Origin: Chloroflexota bacterium
Lineage (GTDB): Bacteria; Chloroflexota; Anaerolineae; Promineifilales; Promineifilaceae
NCBI GenBank assembly: GCA_020628815.1
Contig: JAHDEN010000001.1
Coordinates: forward strand, 36,288 to 100,287
Reading direction: 5' to 3'
Length of the DNA stretch: 64,000 bases
The notes beneath the pieces were generated by a model. That model was not told where the DNA came from, did no database searches, and was given only the letters and a program-made list of their open reading frames with translations. Below, piece after piece: positions 21,974 through 62,705 of this stretch (position 1 is its first letter; every line of letters begins with the position of its first letter). The translations under genes and the position numbers were made by a program.

Positions 21974-22603
21974 TCAAATCTTGTTTCCTAGTTCTGAGCG
22001 CAGCTTAGACTGCACCTCTTCAATCGAAACAGACGCGTCGATCTCGCACCACCGGCCGGGGTCAGCCGCAATCATCGCCCGATACCCCTGCTCCACCCGA
22101 TCATAAAACGCCTTTTTTTGCAGATCCATCCGGTTCATTTCCAGATTGCCTACCTCTCGCCTGCGCAGCCCTTCCTCCACATCAACATACAGAAAGAACG
22201 ATAAATCCGGTTTAAGTCCCCCCGTTGCAAAGCGGGTGATCATTTGCAGATCATCCATGTTTAGCCCCCGGCCGTATCCCTGATACGCATAGGTGCTATC
22301 GGTGTATCGATCACACAGCACAATGGTTCCCTCAGCCAGTGCCGGCCGGATGAGCTCTTCGACATGTTGCGCACGGTCGGCCGAGTAGAGCAAAATTTCG
22401 GCCGTGCTCGTCATCGCCTTGTTGTTGACATCGTGCAGCACATGGCGGATTTGGGTCCCGATATCGGTCCCACCCGGCTGGCGAGTCACAATCACCGTTT
22501 TCCCCTGTGACTCTAAGTATTCGGCCAATAATTTAATTTGGGTCGTTTTACCGCTCCCTTCGCTTCCTTCAAACGTGATAAACATATTTTGTATTTTACC
22601 CAA
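21974..22603 (-). CDS. tmk: Thymidylate (dTMP) kinase
   Basis: P-loop FEGSEGSGKTTQ, the DRY motif region (LCDRYTDSTYAYQG) and a length of 209 aa. Ends in TGA. Confidence 0.9.
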   Translation of the reverse strand: MGKIQNMFITFEGSEGSGKTTQIKLLAEYLESQGKTVIVTRQPGGTDIGTQIRHVLHDVNNKAMTSTAEILLYSADRAQHVEELIRPALAEGTIVLCDRYTDSTYAYQGYGRGLNMDDLQMITRFATGGLKPDLSFFLYVDVEEGLRRREVGNLEMNRMDLQKKAFYDRVEQGYRAMIAADPGRWCEIDASVSIEEVQSKLRSELGNKI

Positions 22604-28253: not shown

Positions 28254-29148
28254 ATGAGCGAAGAACTAAGATTTGACGGCCGTGTAGCTATCGTCACCGG
28301 AGCAGGTGGCGGATTGGGCGCTGAGTATGCAAAAATTTTAGCCGCACGCGGTGCCAGCGTGGTTGTGAACGACCTTGGTGGCTCTGTCAACGGACAGGGT
28401 GGCGATAACTCTGCGGCCGATCGCGTCGTCAACGAGATCAAAGCGGCCGGTGGTGAAGCTGTTGCCAACTACGAAAGCGTTGAAGACGGTGAACGGATTG
28501 TTGAGCAAGCGATGGACACATTTGGCAAAATCGACATTCTCATCAACAACGCCGGGATTCTGCGCGACAAATCTTTTGCAAAAATGAGCGAAGAGGAATG
28601 GTCTTCTGTCTATCGGGTTCATCTGTATGGCTCTTTCAAAACCCGCGGCTTGGCCCCACATGCGTGCGGGCGGCTACGGCCGGATGGTGATGGCCGCTTC
28701 ATCTTCAGGCGCATATGGCAACTTTGGTCAAGCCAACTATGGCGCCATGAAAATGGGATTGATCGGTCTAATCCGTACCCTAGCCATTGAAGGAATGAAG
28801 TACGACATCAAATCAAACGCTATTTTGCCCTACGGTGGCACCCGCATGACTGAAGGACTCGTCCCTGAAAATGTGTACAAAGCGACAGCGCCTGAAAATG
28901 CGGCTCCAATGGTGGCGTATTTGTGTCACGAAAGCTTTAAAGATAGCGGCCAAGCGTATGAAGTGGGCGGTGGATTTATGTCTCAAATCAGATGGCAGCG
29001 CTCAAAAGGGCATCTTTTCCCGTTAGATGGTGGCATTACAATCGAAAATATCGCAGCCAATTGGGACAGCGTAACTGACTTTAGTCAACCCGCTTACCCC
29101 ACATCTGCGGCCGATGCCTATGCTGAAATCATCAAAAACGCTGGCTAG
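28254..29148 (+). pseudogene. Short-chain dehydrogenase/reductase (MFE-2-type hydroxyacyl-CoA dehydrogenase-like) interrupted by a +1 frameshift
   Basis: Frame A gives TGAGGGLG...NNAGILRD...VHLYGSFK. Frame B continues [15 protein letters not shown]...[18 protein letters not shown] (catalytic YxxxK). The switch falls at the AAAACCC run, 28638-28644. Confidence 0.7.
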
Positions 29149-30916: not shown

Positions 30917-31366
30917 ATGATGACACAAAACATAAAATCTAATCCGCTTGCCTCAATCATCGAGGAATATGGATATTATCTAACGCTCATTGTGGCCTTG
31001 GTTGCTACGCTGGGGAGCCTTTATTTCAGCGAGGTGCGTCAATTTGAACCCTGCCGACTGTGTTGGTTTCAGCGAATCATGATGTATCCAATTGGAATTC
31101 TTGCCGTGGTTGGCATTATCAAACAGGATGAGTATTTGCCCAATTACATTCTCCCTCTTTCGGTCATAGGCATTGGCATCTCCATCTATCATATTTTGAT
31201 TCAGAACGGAATAATCGTGCAATCTTCAGGTTGTACAACCGTGCTTTGCTCAATTAAATACATCAATTGGCTTGGCTTTATTTCAATCCCGGTTTTAGCA
31301 GGGGCCGCATTTCTACTCATCAACATTTTGATGTTGACTAGCCTGAAATTTGCTAATTCAGAATAA
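30917..31366 (+). CDS. bdbC: Disulfide bond formation protein, DsbB/BdbC family
   Basis: Four TM segments. First-loop motif 'EPCRLCWFQRIMMYP' and a second Cys pair (SSGCTTVLC). Confidence 0.8.
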   Translation: MMTQNIKSNPLASIIEEYGYYLTLIVALVATLGSLYFSEVRQFEPCRLCWFQRIMMYPIGILAVVGIIKQDEYLPNYILPLSVIGIGISIYHILIQNGIIVQSSGCTTVLCSIKYINWLGFISIPVLAGAAFLLINILMLTSLKFANSE

Positions 31367-32549: not shown

Positions 32550-33935
32550 TTATTTTTCGAGCTGTACACTTATTAGTGTCATACCAGACTCACTTTCAAA
32601 GTAGATTTCACTTCCTATGCTGTGAGCTCTCTCTTGCATCCCGCGTAAACCAAAATGCTTTGAGACATTACTTAAAACATTTTGTTGAATACCGGTACCA
32701 TTATCAACAATTGAGAGTTGAATTAATTTTGGCTTGAACTCTAATTTTGCTGACAAATTGCTCCCGTTTGAATGCTTTAGGCTGTTGTTTAACCCCTCTT
32801 GCGCAATACGATAAAGGGCCAACTCTTCGTCCATAGATAGTCTTTGAATATTGCCTGCTGATTGAAACTGAATTGATATCCCCTCTCGGCCGATACCAAG
32901 AGACTTAACCAGCATATCGAGTGCGGGCACCAAACCAAGCTCGTCTAAATAGGACGGCCGTAAATCTTGAATCATTGCTCTTAAGTTAGACGAAGTCAGT
33001 GCGATTTGTTCTCGCAAAGGCTCACTTTCGCTTGGTTGAATATCAAGCAACTGAACCAGTTGATCGATATGTATCAGCGACTGGATTGTGTCATCATGTA
33101 GCTCTTGAGCCAACCGTTTTCGCTCTTCTTCTTGACCAGACTGAATCATAGTCGCATACCGGTGTAGTGAATTCTGGTTTTCACCAAGTTTTTGAACCAT
33201 GCTCTCAAGCTCGGCATACAATTCATTAATCTCTTGGATACCAGAGACAAGGGGGACTTTCTGATCATAATTGCCATTTCCGACTTCTTGAGCGTAAGAG
33301 TTTAAGATCGCGAGCGGCTTAAGTACCCACCGATTAGTGCTCCACATGATCAAGAAAAAGATAAAAACAAGTGGGATCAAAAGTAGTGGAATAAGCAGTG
33401 TTAAATTTAAGCGAGCAAATCGGCCGCCGTCCCAGAATTCCTCAATCACAAAAGCCCATCCCAAGCTCTCAACAGGTCCATATGAGATTAGATGAATCGA
33501 ATCTGGAAACGGCTCACTTATCGCACCACTCTCCCCATTCAACGCTTCATCAACACCTGGATGTGTAACCAGATGGCGAGAAGGATGCACGTCGCCTGAG
33601 TAGTAAATAACGTTCTTTTGTTGATCAACAATTAAAATCGCCTGATCTGTTTGATCATTTTTTAAGATAGCTAACTCATGCGCCAACATCTCGGCTTGAA
33701 ATGCACCATCCCCTGCAGACAACTGATCAGCTTTGCTCTCTAAAAGGGCAATAGCAAATTGCGCCTCCTGAGCATTCCGACTCTCAACCAACAGCTCCAT
33801 TTCTGCCCGGTGTAATAACATGCTCCAAAGGGCAAAACCGGTTAAGAGAAGCATGATGGGCAAAAAAATCAAAGGGATTGACTGCAGAGACAAAATCCGC
33901 TTGGGAGCATGGAATAAATTATTGGCGCGTTTCAA
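32550..33935 (-). CDS. NarL-class sensor histidine kinase (two TM helices, extracytoplasmic sensor, HAMP, HisKA_3, HATPase)
   Basis: H-box 'RLAQELHDDTIQSL', N-box 'QEGLNNSLKHS' and 'DNGTGI'. Two hydrophobic segments flank a ~150 aa domain. Confidence 0.85.
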   Translation of the reverse strand: MKRANNLFHAPKRILSLQSIPLIFLPIMLLLTGFALWSMLLHRAEMELLVESRNAQEAQFAIALLESKADQLSAGDGAFQAEMLAHELAILKNDQTDQAILIVDQQKNVIYYSGDVHPSRHLVTHPGVDEALNGESGAISEPFPDSIHLISYGPVESLGWAFVIEEFWDGGRFARLNLTLLIPLLLIPLVFIFFLIMWSTNRWVLKPLAILNSYAQEVGNGNYDQKVPLVSGIQEINELYAELESMVQKLGENQNSLHRYATMIQSGQEEERKRLAQELHDDTIQSLIHIDQLVQLLDIQPSESEPLREQIALTSSNLRAMIQDLRPSYLDELGLVPALDMLVKSLGIGREGISIQFQSAGNIQRLSMDEELALYRIAQEGLNNSLKHSNGSNLSAKLEFKPKLIQLSIVDNGTGIQQNVLSNVSKHFGLRGMQERAHSIGSEIYFESESGMTLISVQLEK

Positions 33936-33961: not shown

Positions 33962-34624
33962 TTAAATTTTAATAACTCCCATATTGGTTGCCTTACTAAG
34001 GGCCTCGGTCCGATTTGATACATCTAACTTCCGATAAATATTTGCCAAATGGCTCTGCACCGTGCGACTGCTAATCCCTTTTTCAACCCCTATTTGCTTA
34101 TTCGTCTTCCCGTTTTTCAACATCTGCAACATCTCCACCTCCCGATCTGTGAGTGGATTTTTTGTTTCTTGAGCAAGTTGACCAATCAACTTTTGGGCAA
34201 TGGCTGGGGACAAGGCTGATCGGCCGCCATGAATCGATTTTATAGCAGAGATTAACTCTATTGGGGTTGCAGATTTCAGCATGTAACCATCGGCACCAGT
34301 GGATAAAACTGCGGAAATATACGGATCATCATCATAAGCAGATAGGATCAAGACCCGAATGTTTGGGTATGTATGCCGGATAAATTTAGTTGTTTCTATC
34401 CCGTTCATTTCCGGCATTTTTATATCTAAAATAGCAACATCAACTTTTGAGTTGCAGGTAGAAAGATAATCGATGACCTCTTGACCATTCGAAGCTTCAT
34501 AGATGACCTGAACTTCATCCGTCTTTTCAACAAACTGACGAATGCCCGCTCTGACCATCGCATGATCGTCGGCTAACACCGCTCGTATTTTCATTGATTT
34601 ATTTATCATGTCTGATTCAATCAT
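33962..34624 (-). CDS. NarL/LuxR-family response regulator
   Basis: REC motifs (LADDH, VAILDIKMPEMNG, YMLK) and a C-terminal LuxR helix-turn-helix (LTDREVEMLQMLKNGKTNKQIG). Its ATG overlaps the upstream gene's TGA (ATGA). Confidence 0.9.
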   Translation of the reverse strand: MIESDMINKSMKIRAVLADDHAMVRAGIRQFVEKTDEVQVIYEASNGQEVIDYLSTCNSKVDVAILDIKMPEMNGIETTKFIRHTYPNIRVLILSAYDDDPYISAVLSTGADGYMLKSATPIELISAIKSIHGGRSALSPAIAQKLIGQLAQETKNPLTDREVEMLQMLKNGKTNKQIGVEKGISSRTVQSHLANIYRKLDVSNRTEALSKATNMGVIKI

Positions 34625-35013
34625 TCGATCAATTCGTCCAGAGTTGGTTTCAAAAGATCGGCCGGTTGCGAGCCAAAAAATCGATTAGTTATCTCCCCAT
34701 CTTCCGAAATAAGAGCAACGGACGGGTGGCCCCGGAGTGCTAGGTCATTTTGAATTTTCTGATTTGCGGGCTCATTTGCATCAAACCGATAAAATTTAAT
34801 TGATGGATACTCTTCTTCAAGCCCATTCACGATGGGAGCAAACTCTTCTCACGGCGCTCACGGGTCGGTAAAGAATAAGACAAAGGCGGGGCCATCGAAA
34901 GTGACTTCTTGTGCAGACTCAACTTCGGCCGAATCTGGCTCAGATCGAGAACAACTTGCTAACCCGATCGCTAATAAACTAAAAAAAAATGCAATAAATT
35001 TCCACTTTGTCAT
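34621..35013 (-). CDS. Thioredoxin-fold lipoprotein with two in-frame TGA codons at the CxxC positions (putative UxxU selenoprotein, 130 aa)
   Basis: Minus-strand translation from the ATG at 35013: MTKWKFIAFFFSLLAIGLASC (lipobox) ...GPAFVLFFTDP-[TGA 34860-34858]-A-P-[TGA 34851-34849]-EEFAPIVNGLEEEY...LRGHPSVALISEDGE (cis-Pro loop). This aligns with FWAxWCGPCxxxAPxl of thioredoxins. There are no other stops and the frame is preserved. The ORF track shows only the distal 69 aa. Confidence 0.6.
34816..34842 (-). promoter_or_regulatory. Candidate bacterial SECIS-like hairpin downstream of the two TGA codons
   Basis: mRNA UUUG-CU-CCCAU [CGUGA] AUGGG-CU-UGAA: a 5-bp upper stem, a 2x2 internal loop, a 4-bp lower stem (two G-U pairs) and a GU-containing apical loop that starts 17 nt and 26 nt after the two UGAs. 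Confidence 0.3.
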
Positions 35014-35026
35014 ATTGATTTACTTG

Positions 35027-35530
35027 TTATCTTTGAGCTTGAAGTTCCTGAATGCTAGGAGACCATGTGCTTTTAATATAACCCAATACCGCATCAATTT
35101 CCTCGTCGCTTAACATGTCTTCATAGGCAGGCATGTTACTTTCAGCCTGCATATTTGGGTCAAGTTCTCGGGTCCCATATCGGATACGGTCGAGCAAATA
35201 CTGGTCATTGTGATGCCACGTATGTCCATCTTCGTCATGCGGTGGTGCTCTGAATGTCCCATCTGCGTTGCGCTGTTGCCAATCTTCTTGACCTTCAAGA
35301 TTCTCTCCGTGACACGACGCACAATTTTCTGCATAAACAATTTTACCAAGTTCTAAACCATCGGCGCTTAAAAGGGTTGAGCCAACCATGATTGATTCAG
35401 CCGCCCGATTTTCATCACGCCTAATCGCCAATATTCCCATACCAAACATGATAACTGTGGCAAAAATGATAATGGGGAGAATTGGGGCACCACTTTTATT
35501 TGAAGACCGATTTTTTTTGTTCTTTGCCAT
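35027..35530 (-). CDS. Membrane-anchored class I c-type cytochrome
   Basis: N-terminal TM helix, heme-binding CASCHG motif and a distal Met ligand region (SNMPAY). Ends 13 nt upstream of the Trx-like gene start. Confidence 0.8.
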   Translation of the reverse strand: MAKNKKNRSSNKSGAPILPIIIFATVIMFGMGILAIRRDENRAAESIMVGSTLLSADGLELGKIVYAENCASCHGENLEGQEDWQQRNADGTFRAPPHDEDGHTWHHNDQYLLDRIRYGTRELDPNMQAESNMPAYEDMLSDEEIDAVLGYIKSTWSPSIQELQAQR

Positions 35531-35657: not shown

Positions 35658-36212
35658 TTAAGCTTCGGCCGTGGATTGAAAAGCTGACACAGCTAGAATA
35701 ACCAGCAACGGAACCTCAATAACCTTAGTTAAAATCGCCACAAAATCATAGTGATCATGGGTTAGAAAATATCCCAAAATTGTCACCAGTGTGTACATCG
35801 CCAGCACAATCGACACTATCCGCTTTTGAATTGGAATAAATTGCTTTGGTATAGCCCATAAGATACCTAAGCCTAAAAAGCCGATTCCATTGAGAAGCAG
35901 TAGAGTGTCTCCCCAAACTGAGCCAACCATTAGATGAATCACACCTGTTGCTCCAGCTAAGGCTAAGCCGATGAGTGTCATCATGCCGGGCCGGGGAGAG
36001 AATAAGAATGCCCCTCCGGCCGCTAACAAGACAGCTCCAAGAATTCCGCCGATGATGAAACTGATATTGCTTGTACCAGACGCATGATCGTCTAAAACTT
36101 CGGCCGAAGTTTCTTCTTCTGGATCATCGCCATGCGATAAAACTGGAACAGCAAAAAGCAGACTTGAGAGCACAATAAGTAGAACACCAATTTTTTTAGA
36201 TTTTTTAATCAC
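35658..36212 (-). CDS. Integral membrane protein of unknown function (signal peptide plus 4-5 TM helices)
   Basis: Signal-like N-terminus ending VLSHGDDPEEE, followed by several hydrophobic helices. Same strand as, and upstream of, the cytochrome c gene. Confidence 0.65.
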   Translation of the reverse strand: MIKKSKKIGVLLIVLSSLLFAVPVLSHGDDPEEETSAEVLDDHASGTSNISFIIGGILGAVLLAAGGAFLFSPRPGMMTLIGLALAGATGVIHLMVGSVWGDTLLLLNGIGFLGLGILWAIPKQFIPIQKRIVSIVLAMYTLVTILGYFLTHDHYDFVAILTKVIEVPLLVILAVSAFQSTAEA

Positions 36213-60171: not shown

Positions 60172-60409
60172 AAATTCAAAATTTATCAACTGTGACGAAG
60201 ATAAGTATTTTGCAGTTTGTTTCCAGAGAGTTAGCGGCGGTGCAAGCTAATAACAAAAGCAATTGAAATCTACTTCTGAGTTGTTTGCGCAAAACGCAAA
60301 CCGGTTAGGACCGTTATATCCTCCAGAGTATAGTCAAAGCTTAGAGCAATGACTTAAAATTCAGGTGGTACCGCGACGCCCCTTCGCCCTGAAGCGAAGG
60401 GGCGTTTTG
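60172..60409 (+). promoter_or_regulatory. T-box riboswitch leader (Ser specifier) with an intrinsic terminator
   Basis: AGAGAG and GGUGCAA Stem-I elements. GAAA-UCU-A specifier candidate at 60269-60271. T-box sequence AAAUUCAGGUGGUACCGCG (60355-60375). Terminator CGCCCCTTCGC/GCGAAGGGGCG+TTTT (60377-60409). Confidence 0.8.
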
Positions 60410-60477: not shown

Positions 60478-61845
60478 ATGATAGACATAAATTTGATTCG
60501 AAATCAGACCGATTGGGTGCGTGAGCAATTGGTCAAGTTAAATGACACCAAGGCACCGATAGACACCGTCTTAGAGCAAGACACTATCCGCCGAGAGGTA
60601 ATTGCAGAGGTTGAAGAGCTGCGACGGGAGCGGAATGTAGCCAGTAAAGCGATTGGCAAAGCGATGGGTGGCTTGAAAAAAATGGAAGCCGACCTTAAAA
60701 AAGCTCAGGCGGCCGGTGAAGCTACGGCTGAGTTAGAAGCTCAAGTTGCTCAGGCTCAAAAAGAAGCGGAAGCTGCCAAAGATAAACCACGCAAGATCGG
60801 GGATCGTATTGATGAGCTGCAAGAAAAGCTAAACAAAGCTGAAGCCCGTTTACGAGAAGCGATGCTGTGGGTGCCGAACATGCCGCACGAAAGTGTTCCG
60901 GTGGCGATGAGTGACGAAGAAAATGTAAATGGGGCACCACAGGGAACACCCATCCCACAATTTGATTTTGAACCGATACCCCATTGGGATTTGGGACCAC
61001 AGTTAGGGCTGATTGACTTTGAGCGAGGGGTAAAACTGAGCGGAAGCCGGTTTTATGTTTTACAAGGGGTTGGTGCCCGGCTGCAGCGGGCGGTGATCCA
61101 GTTTATGCTCAACCATCATGTAGATGAGCATGGCTACACGGAGATTTATCCGCCGTTTATGGTACGTAGCGAAATGTTTGAAGGGGCGGCTCAGCTACCT
61201 AAATTTGCTGAAAACATTTATCGTGATGCTGAAGAAGATTTCATGTTCTTGGGCACGGCCGAAATCGCGCTAACAAATTTGCATAGAGATGAGATTTTAG
61301 AGCATACGGATTTACCGAAAAAGTATGTCGCTTATACACCTTGTTTCCGACGTGAAAAAATGAGCGCCGGCCGAGATGTACGCGGCATCAAGCGTGGCCA
61401 TCAGTTTGATAAGGTGGAAATGTACCGCTTTACCAAGCCAGAAGACAGCTATGCGGCGCTTGAAGAACTCCTGACCGAAGCGACAGATATCGCTGAAGCG
61501 TTGGAGTTGCCGTACCGCATCGTTGATATTGTAAGTGGCGACCTTGGGTTTGCGGCCGCCAAGAAATATGATGTTGAGATTTGGGCGGCCGGTTGCCAAG
61601 AGTGGCTTGAAGTGAGCAGCGCCAGTAACTGTGAAGGGTTCCAAGCTCGCCGGGCCAATATTCGGTATCGGCCGGATGAAGGTGGACGGCCGCAGTATGT
61701 TCATACCCTAAATGCCAGCGGGCTAGCATTGCCCCGCGTCATGATCGCCATCATGGAAAACAATCAGCAAAAAGATGGCAGCATTGTAATACCCAAGGTT
61801 TTGCGTCCATACATGGGTGGCCTAGAGGTAATCGAACCGGCATAA
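60478..61845 (+). CDS. serS: Seryl-tRNA synthetase
   Basis: Class II motifs (FRRE, GHQFDKVE, ASNCEGFQARR, LNASGLALPR), an N-terminal coiled-coil arm, and a length of 455 aa. Confidence 0.95.
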   Translation: MIDINLIRNQTDWVREQLVKLNDTKAPIDTVLEQDTIRREVIAEVEELRRERNVASKAIGKAMGGLKKMEADLKKAQAAGEATAELEAQVAQAQKEAEAAKDKPRKIGDRIDELQEKLNKAEARLREAMLWVPNMPHESVPVAMSDEENVNGAPQGTPIPQFDFEPIPHWDLGPQLGLIDFERGVKLSGSRFYVLQGVGARLQRAVIQFMLNHHVDEHGYTEIYPPFMVRSEMFEGAAQLPKFAENIYRDAEEDFMFLGTAEIALTNLHRDEILEHTDLPKKYVAYTPCFRREKMSAGRDVRGIKRGHQFDKVEMYRFTKPEDSYAALEELLTEATDIAEALELPYRIVDIVSGDLGFAAAKKYDVEIWAAGCQEWLEVSSASNCEGFQARRANIRYRPDEGGRPQYVHTLNASGLALPRVMIAIMENNQQKDGSIVIPKVLRPYMGGLEVIEPA

Positions 61846-62039: not shown

Positions 62040-62705
62040 ATGGACTATAAACTTAAGCTTGTCAGCTTTAAATTATGACCTTACGTTCAGCGTTCGGTCA
62101 TAACGCTAAACCATTTGGGAGTTCCCTATGATATTGAGTACATCGATTTAGCTAACAAACCAGACTGGTTTTTAGAGATTTCGCCATTGGGAAAAGTGCC
62201 TGTTGTACAGGTAAATGACGGGGCATCGATATTTGAGTCTGCCGTGATCAACGAATTTGTCTCAGAAATCAATCCGCCCGTTATGCATCCGGCCGATCCT
62301 GTTGAAAAAGCTCGTAACCGGGCATGGATCGAATACGGGTCGGGCATGTTGGGCACAAATTTTCGATTACGGAATTCGAAAACGGCCGAAGAGTTTGCTG
62401 AAAATCGCAGCAAATTAATCGACCAGCTCAAAAAGGTTGAAGAACAAATAGATGAAGGCCCTTTCTTTAACGGGGAGGAATTTAGCCTCATCGACAGTTC
62501 GTACACACCTTTGTTTATGCAGCTGGATCTGATGAATAAGATTCATAACTTTGACATTTATGCAGAGACCCCAAAAGTCGGCCGATGGGCTGAGATGATG
62601 CTGTCTTTAGACGCGGTCAAAAGTTCAGTTGTCGAGGATTTTCCTGAGCTATTTACAGCCAGCATTTCTAAACGGGATGGATACTTGGGCCAGTTTTTGA
62701 ACTAG
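62040..62705 (+). CDS. Glutathione S-transferase-family protein with an in-frame TGA at the catalytic Cys position (putative selenoprotein, 221 aa)
   Basis: The ATG at 62040 is preceded by GAGG. Translation MDYKLKLVSFKL-[TGA 62076-62078]-PYVQRSVITLNHLGVPYDIEYIDLANKPDWFLEISPLGKVPVV matches the 'SFKLCPYVQR...DLANKPDWF..SPLGKVP' N-terminal domain of Cys-type GSTs. It is in the same frame as the track ORF 62115..62705. Confidence 0.65.
62085..62111 (+). promoter_or_regulatory. Candidate bacterial SECIS hairpin 6 nt downstream of the GST TGA
   Basis: GUUCAGCGUU [CGGUCAU] AACGCUAAAC: 9 bp with one C-A mismatch. The apical loop contains GGUC, as in the E. coli fdhF SECIS loop, and starts 16 nt after the UGA. 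Confidence 0.45.

What the first reader, a model, noticed from the sequence alone, without database searches (positions are those of the whole stretch)
34621..35013. Thioredoxin-fold lipoprotein whose CxxC motif is encoded TGA-GCG-CCG-TGA: a putative UxxU (diselenide) selenoprotein
Seen directly:
- On the minus strand, an ATG at 35013 opens a frame encoding a lipoprotein signal peptide (LLAIGLASC) and then a canonical thioredoxin fold.
- The only interruptions are two TGA codons (34860-34858 and 34851-34849), separated by Ala-Pro.
- They fall exactly where the two redox cysteines sit: FFTDP-*-AP-*-EEFAPIV aligns with FWAxW-C-GP-C-xxxAPxl.
- The frame is otherwise intact through the cis-Pro loop (RGHPSV) to a normal stop that overlaps the next gene's ATG.

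Two independent nonsense mutations hitting precisely both active-site Cys codons of an otherwise clean gene is very unlikely. Sec replacing redox Cys is the established signature of bacterial selenoproteins. A hairpin with a GU-containing loop lies 17 and 26 nt downstream of the two UGAs, within the usual bacterial SECIS window.

A second Cys-to-TGA gene lies in the same window (the GST at 62076), which supports Sec decoding in this organism. UxxU motifs are very rare. The only well-described case I know of is eukaryotic SelL. A secreted, lipid-anchored bacterial UxxU thioredoxin, with two UGAs possibly served by a single SECIS, would be unusual.
Basis: partly seen in the sequence, partly recalled or inferred. 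Interest (0 to 1): 0.9.

Follow-up and report, generated by a model that had tools for sequence, protein, structure and literature searches.

The report
Double-selenocysteine thioredoxin-like lipoprotein gene
This is almost certainly a real gene for a small lipid-anchored thioredoxin-like protein whose two active-site cysteines are both replaced by selenocysteine, and it belongs to a large family in Chloroflexota bacteria that gene callers routinely cut in two.

Summary
The minus-strand ORF 35013-34621 encodes a lipoprotein signal peptide and a thioredoxin fold. It is interrupted only by TGA at 34860-34858 and 34851-34849, which align with the two CxxC cysteines.

It is not a pseudogene. Of 27 non-redundant homologous loci (31-82% identity, Chloroflexota/Anaerolineae), 24 keep TGA-x-x-TGA and 3 have TGA-x-x-TGY. 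More distant homologues have WCxxC in the same columns.

A 6-bp hairpin with loop CGUGA starts 20 nt after the first UGA and 11 nt after the second. It lies in the codons for P-I-V-N-G.
- Its synonymous sites are frozen (CCC, GTG and GGG in 27/27).
- Two stem pairs covary.
- A Cys-type homologue encodes the same peptide with codons that cannot pair.

About 95 of 138 family representatives are gene calls truncated at the TGAs.

The gene sits next to a membrane-anchored c-type cytochrome, and is fused to it in one lineage.

A known GST-like selenoprotein gene at 62040-62705 supports Sec decoding in this organism.

UxxU motifs served by one SECIS are already known in bacteria (SelL/Prx-like and others). 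This is therefore a new, uncatalogued family of a known kind. The Sec machinery could not be checked.

The parts
34621..35013 (-). Complete coding sequence of the UxxU thioredoxin-like lipoprotein (130 residues plus a TGA stop at 34623-34621)
   Evidence: Orthologues with the same architecture appear.
34951..35013 (-). Lipoprotein signal peptide ending in lipobox L-A-S-C (Cys21 = 34953-34951)
   Evidence: Read directly from the translation. An equivalent signal peptide with a lipobox Cys is seen in every homologue with a complete N-terminus.
34858..34860 (-). First in-frame UGA (codon 52), at the position of the N-terminal Cys of the CxxC motif
   Evidence: TGA in 27/27 aligned loci. Aligns with the first Cys of thioredoxin CGPC and of the WCxxC homologues.
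34849..34851 (-). Second in-frame UGA (codon 55), at the position of the C-terminal Cys of the CxxC motif
   Evidence: TGA in 24/27 aligned loci and TGY (Cys) in 3.
34821..34837 (-). SECIS-like hairpin. Core stem CCCAU/AUGGG (34836-34832 with 34826-34822), loop CGUGA (34831-34827). The closing pair 34837:34821 is a U-C mismatch in this genome. The element is encoded by codons P60-I-V-N-G64.
   Evidence: RNAalifold predicts exactly this helix. 98.1% of cells are paired, with covariation at two pairs and no pairing in slid registers. Codons are frozen. There is one match in the window and one per Sec-type locus.
34717..34734 (-). cis-Pro loop R-G-H-P-S-V (Pro97 = 34725-34723), with a His immediately before the cis-Pro
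   Evidence: Alignment to thioredoxin. Invariant in close homologues. His-Pro is found in about 88 of 104 Sec-type representatives against 1 of 9 Cys-type.
35027..35530 (-). Upstream gene for a membrane-anchored monohaem c-type cytochrome (CASCH ... PPHDEDGHTWHH), the likely redox partner
   Evidence: Pfam PF00034/PF13442. Adjacent on the same strand in L001, L004, L007, L008, L012, L013 and L032. Fused to the Trx domain in L035-L037.
35658..36212 (-). First gene of the conserved cluster: a DUF7475-like membrane protein with a His/acidic N-terminus
   Evidence: 28.7 bits, below the cut-off of 31.3. Same position in L008.
33962..34624 (-). NarL/GerE-type response regulator whose ATG overlaps the Trx stop codon
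   Evidence: Same order in L001-L004 and L008.
32550..33935 (-). HAMP/HisKA_3 histidine kinase, the last gene of the conserved cluster
   Evidence: Same order in L001 and L008.
62040..62705 (+). Second selenoprotein gene of the window: GST-like protein with UGA at 62076-62078 (KL-U-PYVQR). A hairpin AGCGUU-CGGUCAU-AACGCU at 62089-62107 starts 10 nt after the UGA.
   Evidence: Close relatives carry W (code-4 calls) or are truncated there, and distant ones have Cys. The GST-like PF13409 family is listed as a selenoprotein family.

Best explanation
The ORF 35013-34621 (minus strand) is one intact gene for an exported, lipid-anchored thioredoxin-fold protein. Both redox cysteines of its CxxC motif are encoded by UGA and read as selenocysteine (D-P-U-A-P-U).

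Recoding is most likely directed by a single short SECIS hairpin inside the coding sequence.
- The stem is N-CCCAU / AUGGG-N' and the loop is CGUGA.
- The hairpin base lies 11 nt after the second UGA and 20 nt after the first.
- SelB carrying Sec-tRNA(Sec) would bind this hairpin and deliver Sec to both UGAs (inferred).

The mature protein would cycle between a diselenol and a diselenide on the outer face of the membrane. The most likely partner is the membrane-anchored c-type cytochrome encoded immediately upstream.

Shown here: gene integrity, conservation of both UGAs, their equivalence to Cys, the conserved and covarying hairpin, the thioredoxin fold, the lipobox, and the linkage to the cytochrome c.

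Inferred: that the inserted residue is Sec, that one hairpin serves both UGAs, and the redox function. The direction of electron flow is also inferred. I lean towards oxidation of the selenols by the cytochrome, which would make the protein a diselenide-based thiol oxidase or isomerase. My confidence in that direction is about 0.35. The overall confidence given below (0.8) refers to the core claim: a genuine gene recoded at both UGAs through a dedicated SECIS hairpin.
For: Gene integrity and conservation
- The frame is open from the ATG through a lipobox and a Pfam-significant thioredoxin domain. The only stops are the two TGAs at the CxxC positions.
- In a gapless alignment of 27 non-redundant homologous loci (31-82% amino-acid identity), the first TGA is present 27/27 times and the second 24/27 times. 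The other three have TGY, that is UxxC.
- No locus has any other disruption.
- Homologues come from Chloroflexota/Anaerolineae MAGs.
- More distant homologues have WCxxC in the same columns.

The hairpin
- RNAalifold on the 60-nt region predicts only the hairpin at columns 27-32/38-43.
- 98.1% of cells pair, against 2-50% in slid registers.
- Pair 27:43 is GC 17, AU 6, GU 1, unpaired 3. Pair 31:39 is AU 24, GC 3, unpaired 0.
- Codons in the hairpin are frozen: Pro CCC 27/27, Val GTG 27/27, Gly GGG 27/27, Ile ATC 24/24.
- The same amino acids elsewhere use all synonymous codons.
- The one Asn AAC co-occurs with Ile-to-Val GUC, which keeps the pair.
- A further 28 representative clusters start with M at the Val codon, which implies GTG there as well.
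- The Cys-type homologue P0113 encodes P-I-V-H-G-L-E as CCC ATC GTC CAC GGC, which cannot form the stem: -2.1 kcal/mol against -7.7 to -10.2.
- The hairpin motif occurs once per Sec-type locus and is absent from the Cys-type loci L025 and L038.
- The loop has G at position 2 (or position 1 in the GAU variants). This matches the rule that G occupies the first or second apical-loop position in bacterial SECIS elements.

UGA is not a general sense codon
- 44 ORFs with no internal TGA cover 89% of the window. Reading TGA as sense extends only this gene and the GST-like gene in a meaningful way.

Sec decoding in the lineage
- The GST-like gene has UGA at its catalytic Cys, conserved in relatives, and belongs to a listed selenoprotein family.

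Partner cytochrome
- The c-type cytochrome is adjacent in at least 8 distinct lineages and fused in L035-L037.
Against: - No selA, selB, selD or tRNA-Sec was found in the 64-kb window or in any flank. The rest of the genome could not be reached.
- The hairpin is short. In this genome its closing pair is a U-C mismatch (-4.8 kcal/mol).
- Single-sequence folding of the region is no better than shuffles (z = +0.27 and -0.37).
- No Rfam family matches.
- Four of the six stem pairs never vary, so they say nothing either way.
- Part of the locus set was retrieved with a peptide pattern (IVNGLE), so the peptide, though not the codons, is fixed by ascertainment.
- Nothing shows which residue is actually inserted, nor that both UGAs are read efficiently.
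- The cytochrome c partnership is absent from several lineages, including L014, L028 and L031.
Confidence: 0.8

Rival explanations
1. The UGAs are recoded, but one or both are read as cysteine rather than selenocysteine. A SelB-dependent tRNA(ReC) (selC*) would use the same hairpin, so the mature motif would be CxxC, UxxC or CxxU.
For: According to the 2026 hydrogenase survey, tRNA(ReC) decodes UGA as Cys in the presence of a SECIS. That survey also found it enriched in genomes with UxxU motifs (about 56% against about 2.3% of other Sec-type genomes). In this family the second position switches between TGA and TGY (L017, L026, L031). Cys is therefore tolerated there.
Against: No tRNA of any kind lies in the window or the flanks, so there is no positive evidence. 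Keeping TGA at both positions in 24/27 lineages, when a one-base change to TGY would give Cys without special machinery, argues that the residue inserted is not simply Cys.
Confidence: 0.08
2. The gene is a decaying pseudogene, or an assembly error, that happens to carry two nonsense codons.
For: Gene callers split it into ORFs of about 50 and 71-77 residues everywhere. Single-sequence RNA folding is unremarkable.
Against: The same two TGAs, with the same spacing and an otherwise intact frame, recur in independent assemblies from many samples and in two GTDB MAGs at 31-82% identity. Residues on both sides of the TGAs are under obvious purifying selection.
Confidence: 0.01
3. The organism uses a genetic code in which TGA is an ordinary sense codon (Trp as in code 4, or Gly as in code 25). 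The motif would then be WxxW or GxxG.
For: Some metagenome pipelines translated family members as W-x-P-W (P0017, P0045, P0091) and the GST-like relatives as KLWPYVQR. TGA is very rare as a stop in this window: 2 of 45 long ORFs.
Against: - 44 ORFs (18,905 codons, 293 TGG) contain no TGA yet cover 89% of the window.
- Treating TGA as sense extends only the Trx and GST-like genes in a meaningful way.
- Both in-frame TGA sites correspond to catalytic Cys, not to Trp or Gly, in distant homologues.
- tmk and the Trx gene itself end in TGA.
- Other carriers of the family use TGA stops freely.
Confidence: 0.01
4. The protein is a genuine UxxU selenoprotein, but the two selenols, perhaps with the conserved His before the cis-Pro, bind a metal such as Cu(I). 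It would then act as a Sco/TlpA-like copper or cytochrome-oxidase assembly factor or a metal sensor, not as a dithiol-disulfide oxidoreductase.
For: - Neighbours in various lineages include a P-type ATPase (L016), a VKOR with a heavy-metal-binding domain and a cation-efflux protein (L032), COX1 (L035) and a TlpA/AhpC-like protein (L019, L031).
- His precedes the cis-Pro in about 88 of 104 Sec-type representatives but in only 1 of 9 Cys-type.
- A UxxU metal-binding selenoprotein family is already listed.
Against: The fold and motif position are those of redox-active thioredoxins. The Cys-type relatives have the classic WCxxC redox motif. There are no Sco or heavy-metal-associated domain matches. 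The neighbour evidence is heterogeneous.
Confidence: 0.15

Closest known systems
SelL and bacterial Prx-like thiol:disulfide oxidoreductases with UxxU (Shchedrina et al. 2007; GOS 'Prx-like 2'; PF00578 family in the 2022 and 2026 inventories)
   Same: Thioredoxin-superfamily fold with both CxxC cysteines replaced by Sec. They occur in bacteria. The two UGAs are three codons apart and are thought to be served by one SECIS inside the coding region. This last point is from my memory of the 2007 paper. The family and its motif are confirmed.
   Different: - This protein matches PF00085 Thioredoxin and does not match AhpC-TSA/Prx models.
- It is a 130-residue lipoprotein.
- It comes from Chloroflexota, not from marine plankton or eukaryotes.
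- It has a characteristic D-[PNG]-U-x-P-U ... G-H-P signature and a cytochrome c partner.
Thioredoxin selenoprotein of Treponema denticola type (PF00085; UxxC in the 2026 inventory)
   Same: Same Pfam family, with Sec in the redox motif.
   Different: That family has one Sec and, from my own knowledge, is cytoplasmic. Here there are two Sec residues and an export and lipidation signal. The score against the canonical thioredoxin equivalog TIGR01068 is 35.8 against a cut-off of 96.8.
UxxU variants of Group 4 [NiFeSe] hydrogenase large subunits (Front Microbiol 2026, PMC13582414)
   Same: Bacterial UxxU that arose from CxxC. One conserved downstream SECIS is proposed to serve both UGAs. G occupies the first or second loop position. 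The phyla include Chloroflexota.
   Different: There the motif ligates Ni in a cytoplasmic metalloenzyme. Here it is the redox centre of a small exported thioredoxin fold.
Extracytoplasmic thioredoxin-like lipoproteins and anchored proteins (BdbD/DsbA, ResA, TlpA, CcmG)
   Same: A membrane-tethered thioredoxin fold outside the cytoplasm. A DsbB/BdbC-like gene lies 3.3 kb away (30917-31366). A VKOR gene is adjacent in L032. There is a link to c-type cytochromes.
   Different: All of those use Cys. None of their models is matched (ResA NF002854 scores 15.7 bits against a cut-off of 170).
Escherichia coli fdhF SECIS (minimal upper stem-loop)
   Same: A coding-region hairpin with GU in the apical loop. 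Its base lies 11 nt after the second UGA, which is the spacing I recall as optimal for the minimal fdhF element (Liu et al. 1998, from memory).
   Different: The stem is only 5-7 bp, with no evident bulged U or lower stem. It must also act on a second UGA 20 nt upstream.

Membership tests
Bacterial selenoprotein gene (UGA recoded to Sec) | In-frame UGA that aligns with a catalytic Cys in homologues | tested here: met
   Both UGAs align with the CGPC cysteines of thioredoxins and with WCxxC in family homologues P0050, P0060, P0065, P0107, P0113 and P0122.
Bacterial selenoprotein gene (UGA recoded to Sec) | UGA and the reading frame on both sides of it are conserved in orthologues | tested here: met
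   First UGA 27/27 and second UGA 24/27 in non-redundant loci, with no other disruption.
Bacterial selenoprotein gene (UGA recoded to Sec) | SECIS stem-loop shortly downstream of the UGA, with G in the first or second apical-loop position | tested here: met
   The hairpin at 34837-34821 was predicted independently by RNAalifold. It shows covariation and frozen synonymous sites. The loop is CGUGA or GUG. The loop starts 26 and 17 nt after the two UGAs. The 16-37 nt range is from my memory of bSECISearch.
Bacterial selenoprotein gene (UGA recoded to Sec) | Genome encodes selA, selB, selD and tRNA-Sec | not testable with these tools
   None is in the window or the flanks. The source genome is not in the searchable collections. 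The only indirect support is a second selenoprotein gene in the window.
Bacterial selenoprotein gene (UGA recoded to Sec) | Selenium demonstrated in the protein | not testable with these tools
   Needs 75Se labelling or mass spectrometry.
Thioredoxin family (Pfam PF00085) | Score above the Pfam gathering threshold, with the CxxC and cis-Pro positions aligned | tested here: met
   34.7 bits against a cut-off of 23.5, covering residues 38-126. The alignment to PDB thioredoxins includes the motif and the cis-Pro loop.
Canonical thioredoxin TrxA (NCBIfam TIGR01068 equivalog) | Score above the equivalog cut-off | tested here: not met
   35.8 bits against a cut-off of 96.8. No WCGPC motif, and the protein is exported and lipidated.
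SelL / Prx-like UxxU selenoproteins (PF00578-type) | Peroxiredoxin-like (AhpC-TSA) domain | tested here: not met
   No PF00578 match at E <= 1. Redoxin PF08534 gives E = 0.26 and 11.5 bits.
SelL / Prx-like UxxU selenoproteins (PF00578-type) | UxxU at the CxxC position of a thioredoxin-like fold, with one SECIS for both UGAs | tested here: inconclusive
   The UxxU motif is met. Only one conserved hairpin is detectable. Whether it serves both UGAs cannot be shown computationally.
Bacterial lipoprotein | N-terminal signal peptide ending in lipobox [LVI][ASTVI][GAS]C | tested here: met
   K/K n-region, hydrophobic core and L-A-S-C21. Equivalent lipoboxes (LIGC, LAGC, LLGC, MMAC, LTAC and others) occur in the homologues. 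This was judged by inspection, because no signal-peptide predictor was available.
ResA/TlpA/DsbD-type extracytoplasmic reductases | Match to the family models | tested here: not met
   ResA NF002854 scores 15.7 bits against 170. DsbD NF001419 scores 10.1 against 330.
Catalogued prokaryotic selenoprotein families (NCBIfam selenoprotein models; 2026 inventory) | Hit to a dedicated model, or a listing with this domain and motif | tested here: not met
   No dedicated NCBIfam model scores above noise. The inventory lists PF00085 only as UxxC. It lists UxxU only for the Prx-like, metal-binding and FmdB families.

The most novel reading that the evidence does not exclude
The UxxU lipoprotein and its co-encoded, sometimes fused, c-type cytochrome form a selenium-based electron relay outside the cytoplasm, passing electrons between a diselenide and haem c. 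This would be a previously unrecognised route for oxidative protein folding or redox/copper sensing in Chloroflexota. In addition, the clade of this window may have almost abandoned UGA as a stop codon because release factor 2 activity is weakened, which would make back-to-back Sec insertion efficient.
Probability: 0.2. Interest if true: 0.8.

Novelty: new member of a known kind. Interest (0 to 1): 0.6.

Why it matters
- **A large unannotated family.** About 95 clusters at 50% identity, almost all Sec-type, exist in public data only as fragments. They appear as unnamed 50-residue and roughly 70-78-residue gene calls, as 'c-type cytochrome', or as W-x-P-W mistranslations. Recognising the family corrects the annotation of many Chloroflexota genomes and adds a PF00085-type UxxU entry to the prokaryotic selenoproteome.
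- **A compact natural system for studying double Sec insertion.** Two UGAs sit 20 and 11 nt upstream of a 17-nt hairpin. This allows study of how one SelB-SECIS complex decodes neighbouring UGAs, and could guide engineering of diselenide proteins.
- **An exported diselenide centre tied to a cytochrome.** This makes testable the long-standing idea, drawn from work on small-molecule diselenides, that diselenides can catalyse oxidative folding in vivo.

Tried and rejected
- **Single-sequence folding** of the region gave energies no better than shuffles. I relied on comparative structure instead.
- **Rfam** at gathering threshold and at E <= 10 found nothing in the gene. The single window hit is a T-box leader at 60183-60394.
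- **ARAGORN** on the window and 14 flanks found no tRNA, so no tRNA-Sec or tRNA(ReC).
- **Pfam annotation** of 30 window ORFs found no SelA, SelB or SelD.
- **Locating the source genome failed.** The exact cytochrome c product is not on record. A 99%-identical GST fragment, P0158, has no contig in the index. The GTDB scan returned only relatives at 74% and 54% identity.
- **Tool restrictions.** I searched with a profile of the C-terminal 75 residues instead. For the same reason no AlphaFold model of the full protein could be made.
- **The SelL paper is not held**. Statements about it are from memory or from citing papers.
- **Lower stem.** I considered a lower-stem extension (UUUG/UGAA in the close clade). 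It is not conserved.
- **Pseudogene, assembly-error and alternative-code readings** were considered and rejected (see rivals).
Full report
**1. The observation**

Reading the minus strand from ATG 35013 gives a 130-codon frame that ends at TGA 34623-34621.
- Residues 1-21 (MTKWKFIAFFFSLLAIGLASC) have the form of a lipoprotein signal peptide with lipobox L-A-S-C.
- The frame is interrupted only by TGA at 34860-34858 (codon 52) and 34851-34849 (codon 55), giving FFTDP-*-A-P-*-EEFAPIV.
- With the two positions written as Cys, the product passes the Pfam Thioredoxin threshold (PF00085, 34.7 bits against 23.5).
- phmmer against PDB thioredoxins aligns 'dpCapCeefapiv' with 'pwCgpCrmiapii', and RGHPSV with the cis-Pro loop.

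**2. Is it a broken gene?**

No. A search of 5.8 billion proteins returned only four hits. All were 71-72-residue fragments that begin just after the second TGA.

Their contigs show a roughly 50-residue ORF directly upstream. The same neighbours are present: c-type cytochrome upstream, GerE-type response regulator downstream. Translating straight through gives full-length homologues with the same *AP*.

Scans of GTDB genomes and JGI/ENA metagenomes added two Chloroflexota MAGs (74% and 54% identity) and 18 metagenome loci at 31-41% identity. Further loci came from protein look-ups.

In a gapless alignment of 27 non-redundant loci:
- The first TGA is present 27/27 times.
- The second TGA is present 24/27 times. 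L017, L026 and L031 have TGY there, that is UxxC.
- The intervening residues vary (AP, PP, PR, PA, PG, FP, VP).
- No locus has any other frame disruption.
- All loci with a complete N-terminus keep a signal peptide and a lipobox Cys.

More distant relatives carry WCxxC in exactly these columns (P0050, P0060, P0065, P0107, P0113, P0122).

Two nonsense codons kept at the two catalytic positions across this range of divergence, with purifying selection on both sides, exclude a pseudogene or an assembly artefact.

**3. Size of the family**

I built a profile of the C-terminal 75 residues and searched it against 1.84 billion cluster representatives. It gave 138 hits, classified as follows:
- 67 are proteins of about 70-80 residues starting M-x-P-[IV]-V-[NDH]-G.
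- 28 start at the Val codon of that motif (MNGLE...).
- 3 are full length with W-x-P-W, which is TGA translated under code 4.
- About 9 are genuine CxxC proteins.

Roughly 95-100 clusters at 50% identity are therefore gene calls cut at the TGAs. The fragments alone cannot distinguish UxxU from UxxC.

Public names, where they exist, are 'c-type cytochrome' or 'hypothetical protein' from Anaerolineae/Chloroflexota MAGs.

**4. The recoding signal**

RNAalifold on the 60 nt from the codon before the first UGA predicts a single helix. It spans columns 27-32 with 38-43, which is window 34837-34821. The core CCCAUCGUGAAUGGG lies at 34836-34822.

Counting pairs on that structure:
- 98.1% of cells are standard pairs, against 2-50% when the 3' arm is slid by 1-3 nt.
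- Pair 27:43 is G-C in 17, A-U in 6, G-U in 1 and unpaired in 3 sequences. This window is one of the unpaired ones (U-C).
- Pair 31:39 is A-U in 24 and G-C in 3, and is never broken.
- The other four pairs never vary.

The G-C cases at 31:39 correspond to Ile-to-Val (AUC to GUC) together with AAU to AAC, GAC or CAC. In L032 the Asn codon changes synonymously (AAU to AAC) in step with AUC to GUC.

Synonymous sites in the stem and loop are frozen: Pro CCC 27/27, Val GUG 27/27, Gly GGG 27/27 and Ile AUC 24/24. Pro, Gly, Leu, Glu and Phe codons elsewhere in the same alignment use all their synonyms.

This is not an artefact of the peptide pattern used.
- Loci obtained purely through protein identity (L001-L006, L027-L037) show the same codons.
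- The 28 'MNG/MDG/MHG' gene calls imply GTG at the Val codon in 28 more clusters.

There is also a natural control. The Cys-type homologue P0113 encodes the same peptide P-I-V-H-G-L-E as CCC AUC GUC CAC GGC, which cannot form the stem. Its energy is -2.1 kcal/mol, against -7.7 to -10.2 for the Sec-type consensus and variants.

The hairpin motif is found once in each of 35 Sec-type loci. It is absent from the Cys-type loci L025 and L038 (L038 was fetched afterwards).

Geometry is invariant. The hairpin base is 20 nt after the first UGA and 11 nt after the second. The loop starts 26 and 17 nt after them. The loop is CGUGA, or GUG when Asn is Asp. G is therefore at loop position 2 or 1, the feature reported as universal in bacterial SECIS elements.

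No second conserved structure is seen. The simplest model is therefore one SECIS for both UGAs, as proposed for the UxxU hydrogenases and, from my memory of Shchedrina et al. 2007, for bacterial SelL.

Weak points:
- In this genome the hairpin is only 5 bp (-4.8 kcal/mol).
- Single-sequence folding is not significant.
- Rfam has no match.

**5. Is UGA generally a sense codon here?**

No.
- Forty-four ORFs defined with TGA as stop cover 89% of the window (18,905 codons, 293 TGG, 110 TGY).
- Re-reading the window with TGA as sense gives meaningful extensions only for this gene and for the GST-like ORF 62040-62705.
- tmk and the Trx gene itself end in TGA.

The GST-like gene has TGA at 62076-62078 in KL-*-PYVQR.
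- Relatives at 73-86% identity have W there (code-4 calls) or are truncated after it.
- Relatives at about 56% identity have KLCPFVQR.
- A hairpin AGCGUU-CGGUCAU-AACGCU starts 10 nt after the UGA.
- GST-like PF13409 proteins are a listed selenoprotein family.

The window thus holds two independent recoded genes, each with the properties of a bacterial selenoprotein gene. The machinery itself (selA, selB, selC, selD) is not in the window or any flank. The source genome could not be reached.

**6. What the protein probably does**

The fold, the motif position and the WCxxC relatives point to a redox-active thioredoxin-like protein on the outer face of the membrane.

The gene order is DUF7475-like membrane protein, membrane-anchored monohaem cytochrome c, Trx, NarL-type response regulator, HAMP/HisKA_3 kinase. 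It is the same in the window (36212 to 32550, minus strand) and in L008 at 54% identity.

A cytochrome c with the signature CxxCH...PPHDxxGHTWHH is linked to the Trx gene in several ways:
- It lies immediately upstream on the same strand in the window, L001, L004, L007, L008, L012 and L013.
- It lies immediately downstream in L032-L034.
- It lies 2.8 kb upstream in L016.
- It is fused to the C-terminus of the UxxU domain in L035-L037, giving a 277-residue lipoprotein.

Another PF13442 cytochrome c lies in the same cluster in L017 and L021. The cytochrome resembles CcoP domains and c552-type carriers.

Other neighbours vary between lineages:
- a VKOR (L032)
- a BdbC/DsbB-like protein 3.3 kb away in the window (30917-31366)
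- COX1 and a sortase (L035)
- a P-type ATPase (L016)
- TlpA/AhpC-like proteins (L019, L031)

Diselenides have very low redox potentials, so electron flow from the diselenol to a c-type haem is downhill. My preferred reading, which is an inference, is that the cytochrome re-oxidises the selenols and the diselenide oxidises or shuffles substrate thiols.

A reductive role, a metal-binding role (two Se plus the conserved His before the cis-Pro), or a sensory role for the adjacent two-component system cannot be excluded.

**7. Comparison with what is known**

Bacterial UxxU motifs are on record for the following:
- Prx-like thiol:disulfide oxidoreductases and SelL
- a metal-binding protein (NF041115)
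- an FmdB-family protein
- Group 4 [NiFeSe] hydrogenases

The 2026 inventory lists thioredoxin PF00085 only as UxxC. No NCBIfam selenoprotein model matches this protein. It fails the Prx-like domain test. Full-text searches found no description of a selenoprotein of this kind in Chloroflexota or Anaerolineae.

It is therefore best filed as a new family of a known kind. It works like bacterial SelL-type UxxU proteins but is not a member of that family.

An unexcluded variant is decoding of one or both UGAs as Cys by a SelB-dependent tRNA(ReC). That tRNA is reported to be enriched in UxxU-bearing genomes.

**8. Verdict**

My confidence that this is a genuine gene recoded at both UGAs with a dedicated SECIS is about 0.8-0.85.
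- Novelty is moderate: an uncatalogued, abundant UxxU thioredoxin-like lipoprotein family with a minimal SECIS and a cytochrome c partner.
- Interest is 0.6.

Noticed in passing
whole window; tmk 21974-22603 (-); 34621-34623: TGA is strongly avoided as a stop codon. Of 45 long non-overlapping ORFs, 24 end in TAA, 19 in TAG and only 2 in TGA. Yet TGA is the commonest of the three trinucleotides overall (2550, against 1889 TAA and 1189 TAG). Close relatives look similar (L007 1/7, L008 1/6). More distant carriers of the family use TGA stops freely. The Trx gene's own TGA stop is followed five codons later by TGA TAA. Weak RF2 competition could favour double Sec insertion. prfB was not available to check.
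   Followed up: partly
window 62040-62705 (+), TGA at 62076-62078, hairpin 62089-62107: A GST-like selenoprotein gene (KL-U-PYVQR). Close relatives keep the TGA and distant ones have Cys. It belongs to the listed GST-like (PF13409) selenoprotein family. In the window it would be called as a 196-residue fragment starting at 62115.
   Followed up: yes
window 28254-29148 (+): A short-chain dehydrogenase is split into two overlapping ORFs in different frames: 28254-28790 (profile positions 1-115) and 28627-29148 (positions 118-181). This is a frameshift, from a sequencing error or a pseudogene. It accounts for one of the only two 'TGA stops' among the long ORFs.
   Followed up: partly
window 34717-34734 (-) and family representatives: A histidine immediately precedes the cis-proline (R-G-H-P) in about 88 of 104 Sec-type family representatives. 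Only 1 of 9 Cys-type relatives has it; the rest have Q, V or I there. This position is known to tune thioredoxin-fold redox properties. It could also supply a third metal ligand next to the two selenols.
   Followed up: partly
L035 3836-4669 (also L036, L037); GenBank MCL4294259.1: A natural fusion of the UxxU thioredoxin domain with the partner cytochrome c gives a 277-residue lipoprotein. It lies downstream of COX1 and a sortase gene. The public annotation ('c-type cytochrome', 222 aa) starts after the second TGA and so misses the signal peptide and the active site.
   Followed up: yes
L035 6839-7717 (-): A DUF3179 gene is called as two fragments (75 and 91 aa). DUF3179 is a listed selenoprotein family, so this may be a further Sec gene in an Anaerolineae genome that carries the UxxU protein. 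My straight translation also showed other stops, so its state is unclear.
   Followed up: no
window 30917-31366 (+); L032 620-2206: A BdbC/DsbB-type disulfide oxidoreductase (NF002849, 142 bits against a cut-off of 124) lies 3.3 kb from the Trx gene. In L032 a VKOR with a heavy-metal-binding domain is the gene immediately upstream of the UxxU Trx. Both hint at an oxidative, DsbA-like role.
   Followed up: partly
window 60183-60394 (+) and 60478-61845 (+): A T-box leader (119 bits) sits upstream of an ORF that looks like seryl-tRNA synthetase. I identified the ORF by eye only; it was not scanned. This is the enzyme that also charges tRNA-Sec with serine. It lies just upstream of the GST-like selenoprotein gene.
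   Followed up: no
P0017, P0045, P0091; P0159, P0160, P0162, P0163, P0165: Some metagenome pipelines translated short contigs of these organisms with genetic code 4. This produced W-x-P-W thioredoxins and KLWPYVQR GSTs in public protein sets, a systematic mis-annotation of Sec codons as Trp.
   Followed up: partly
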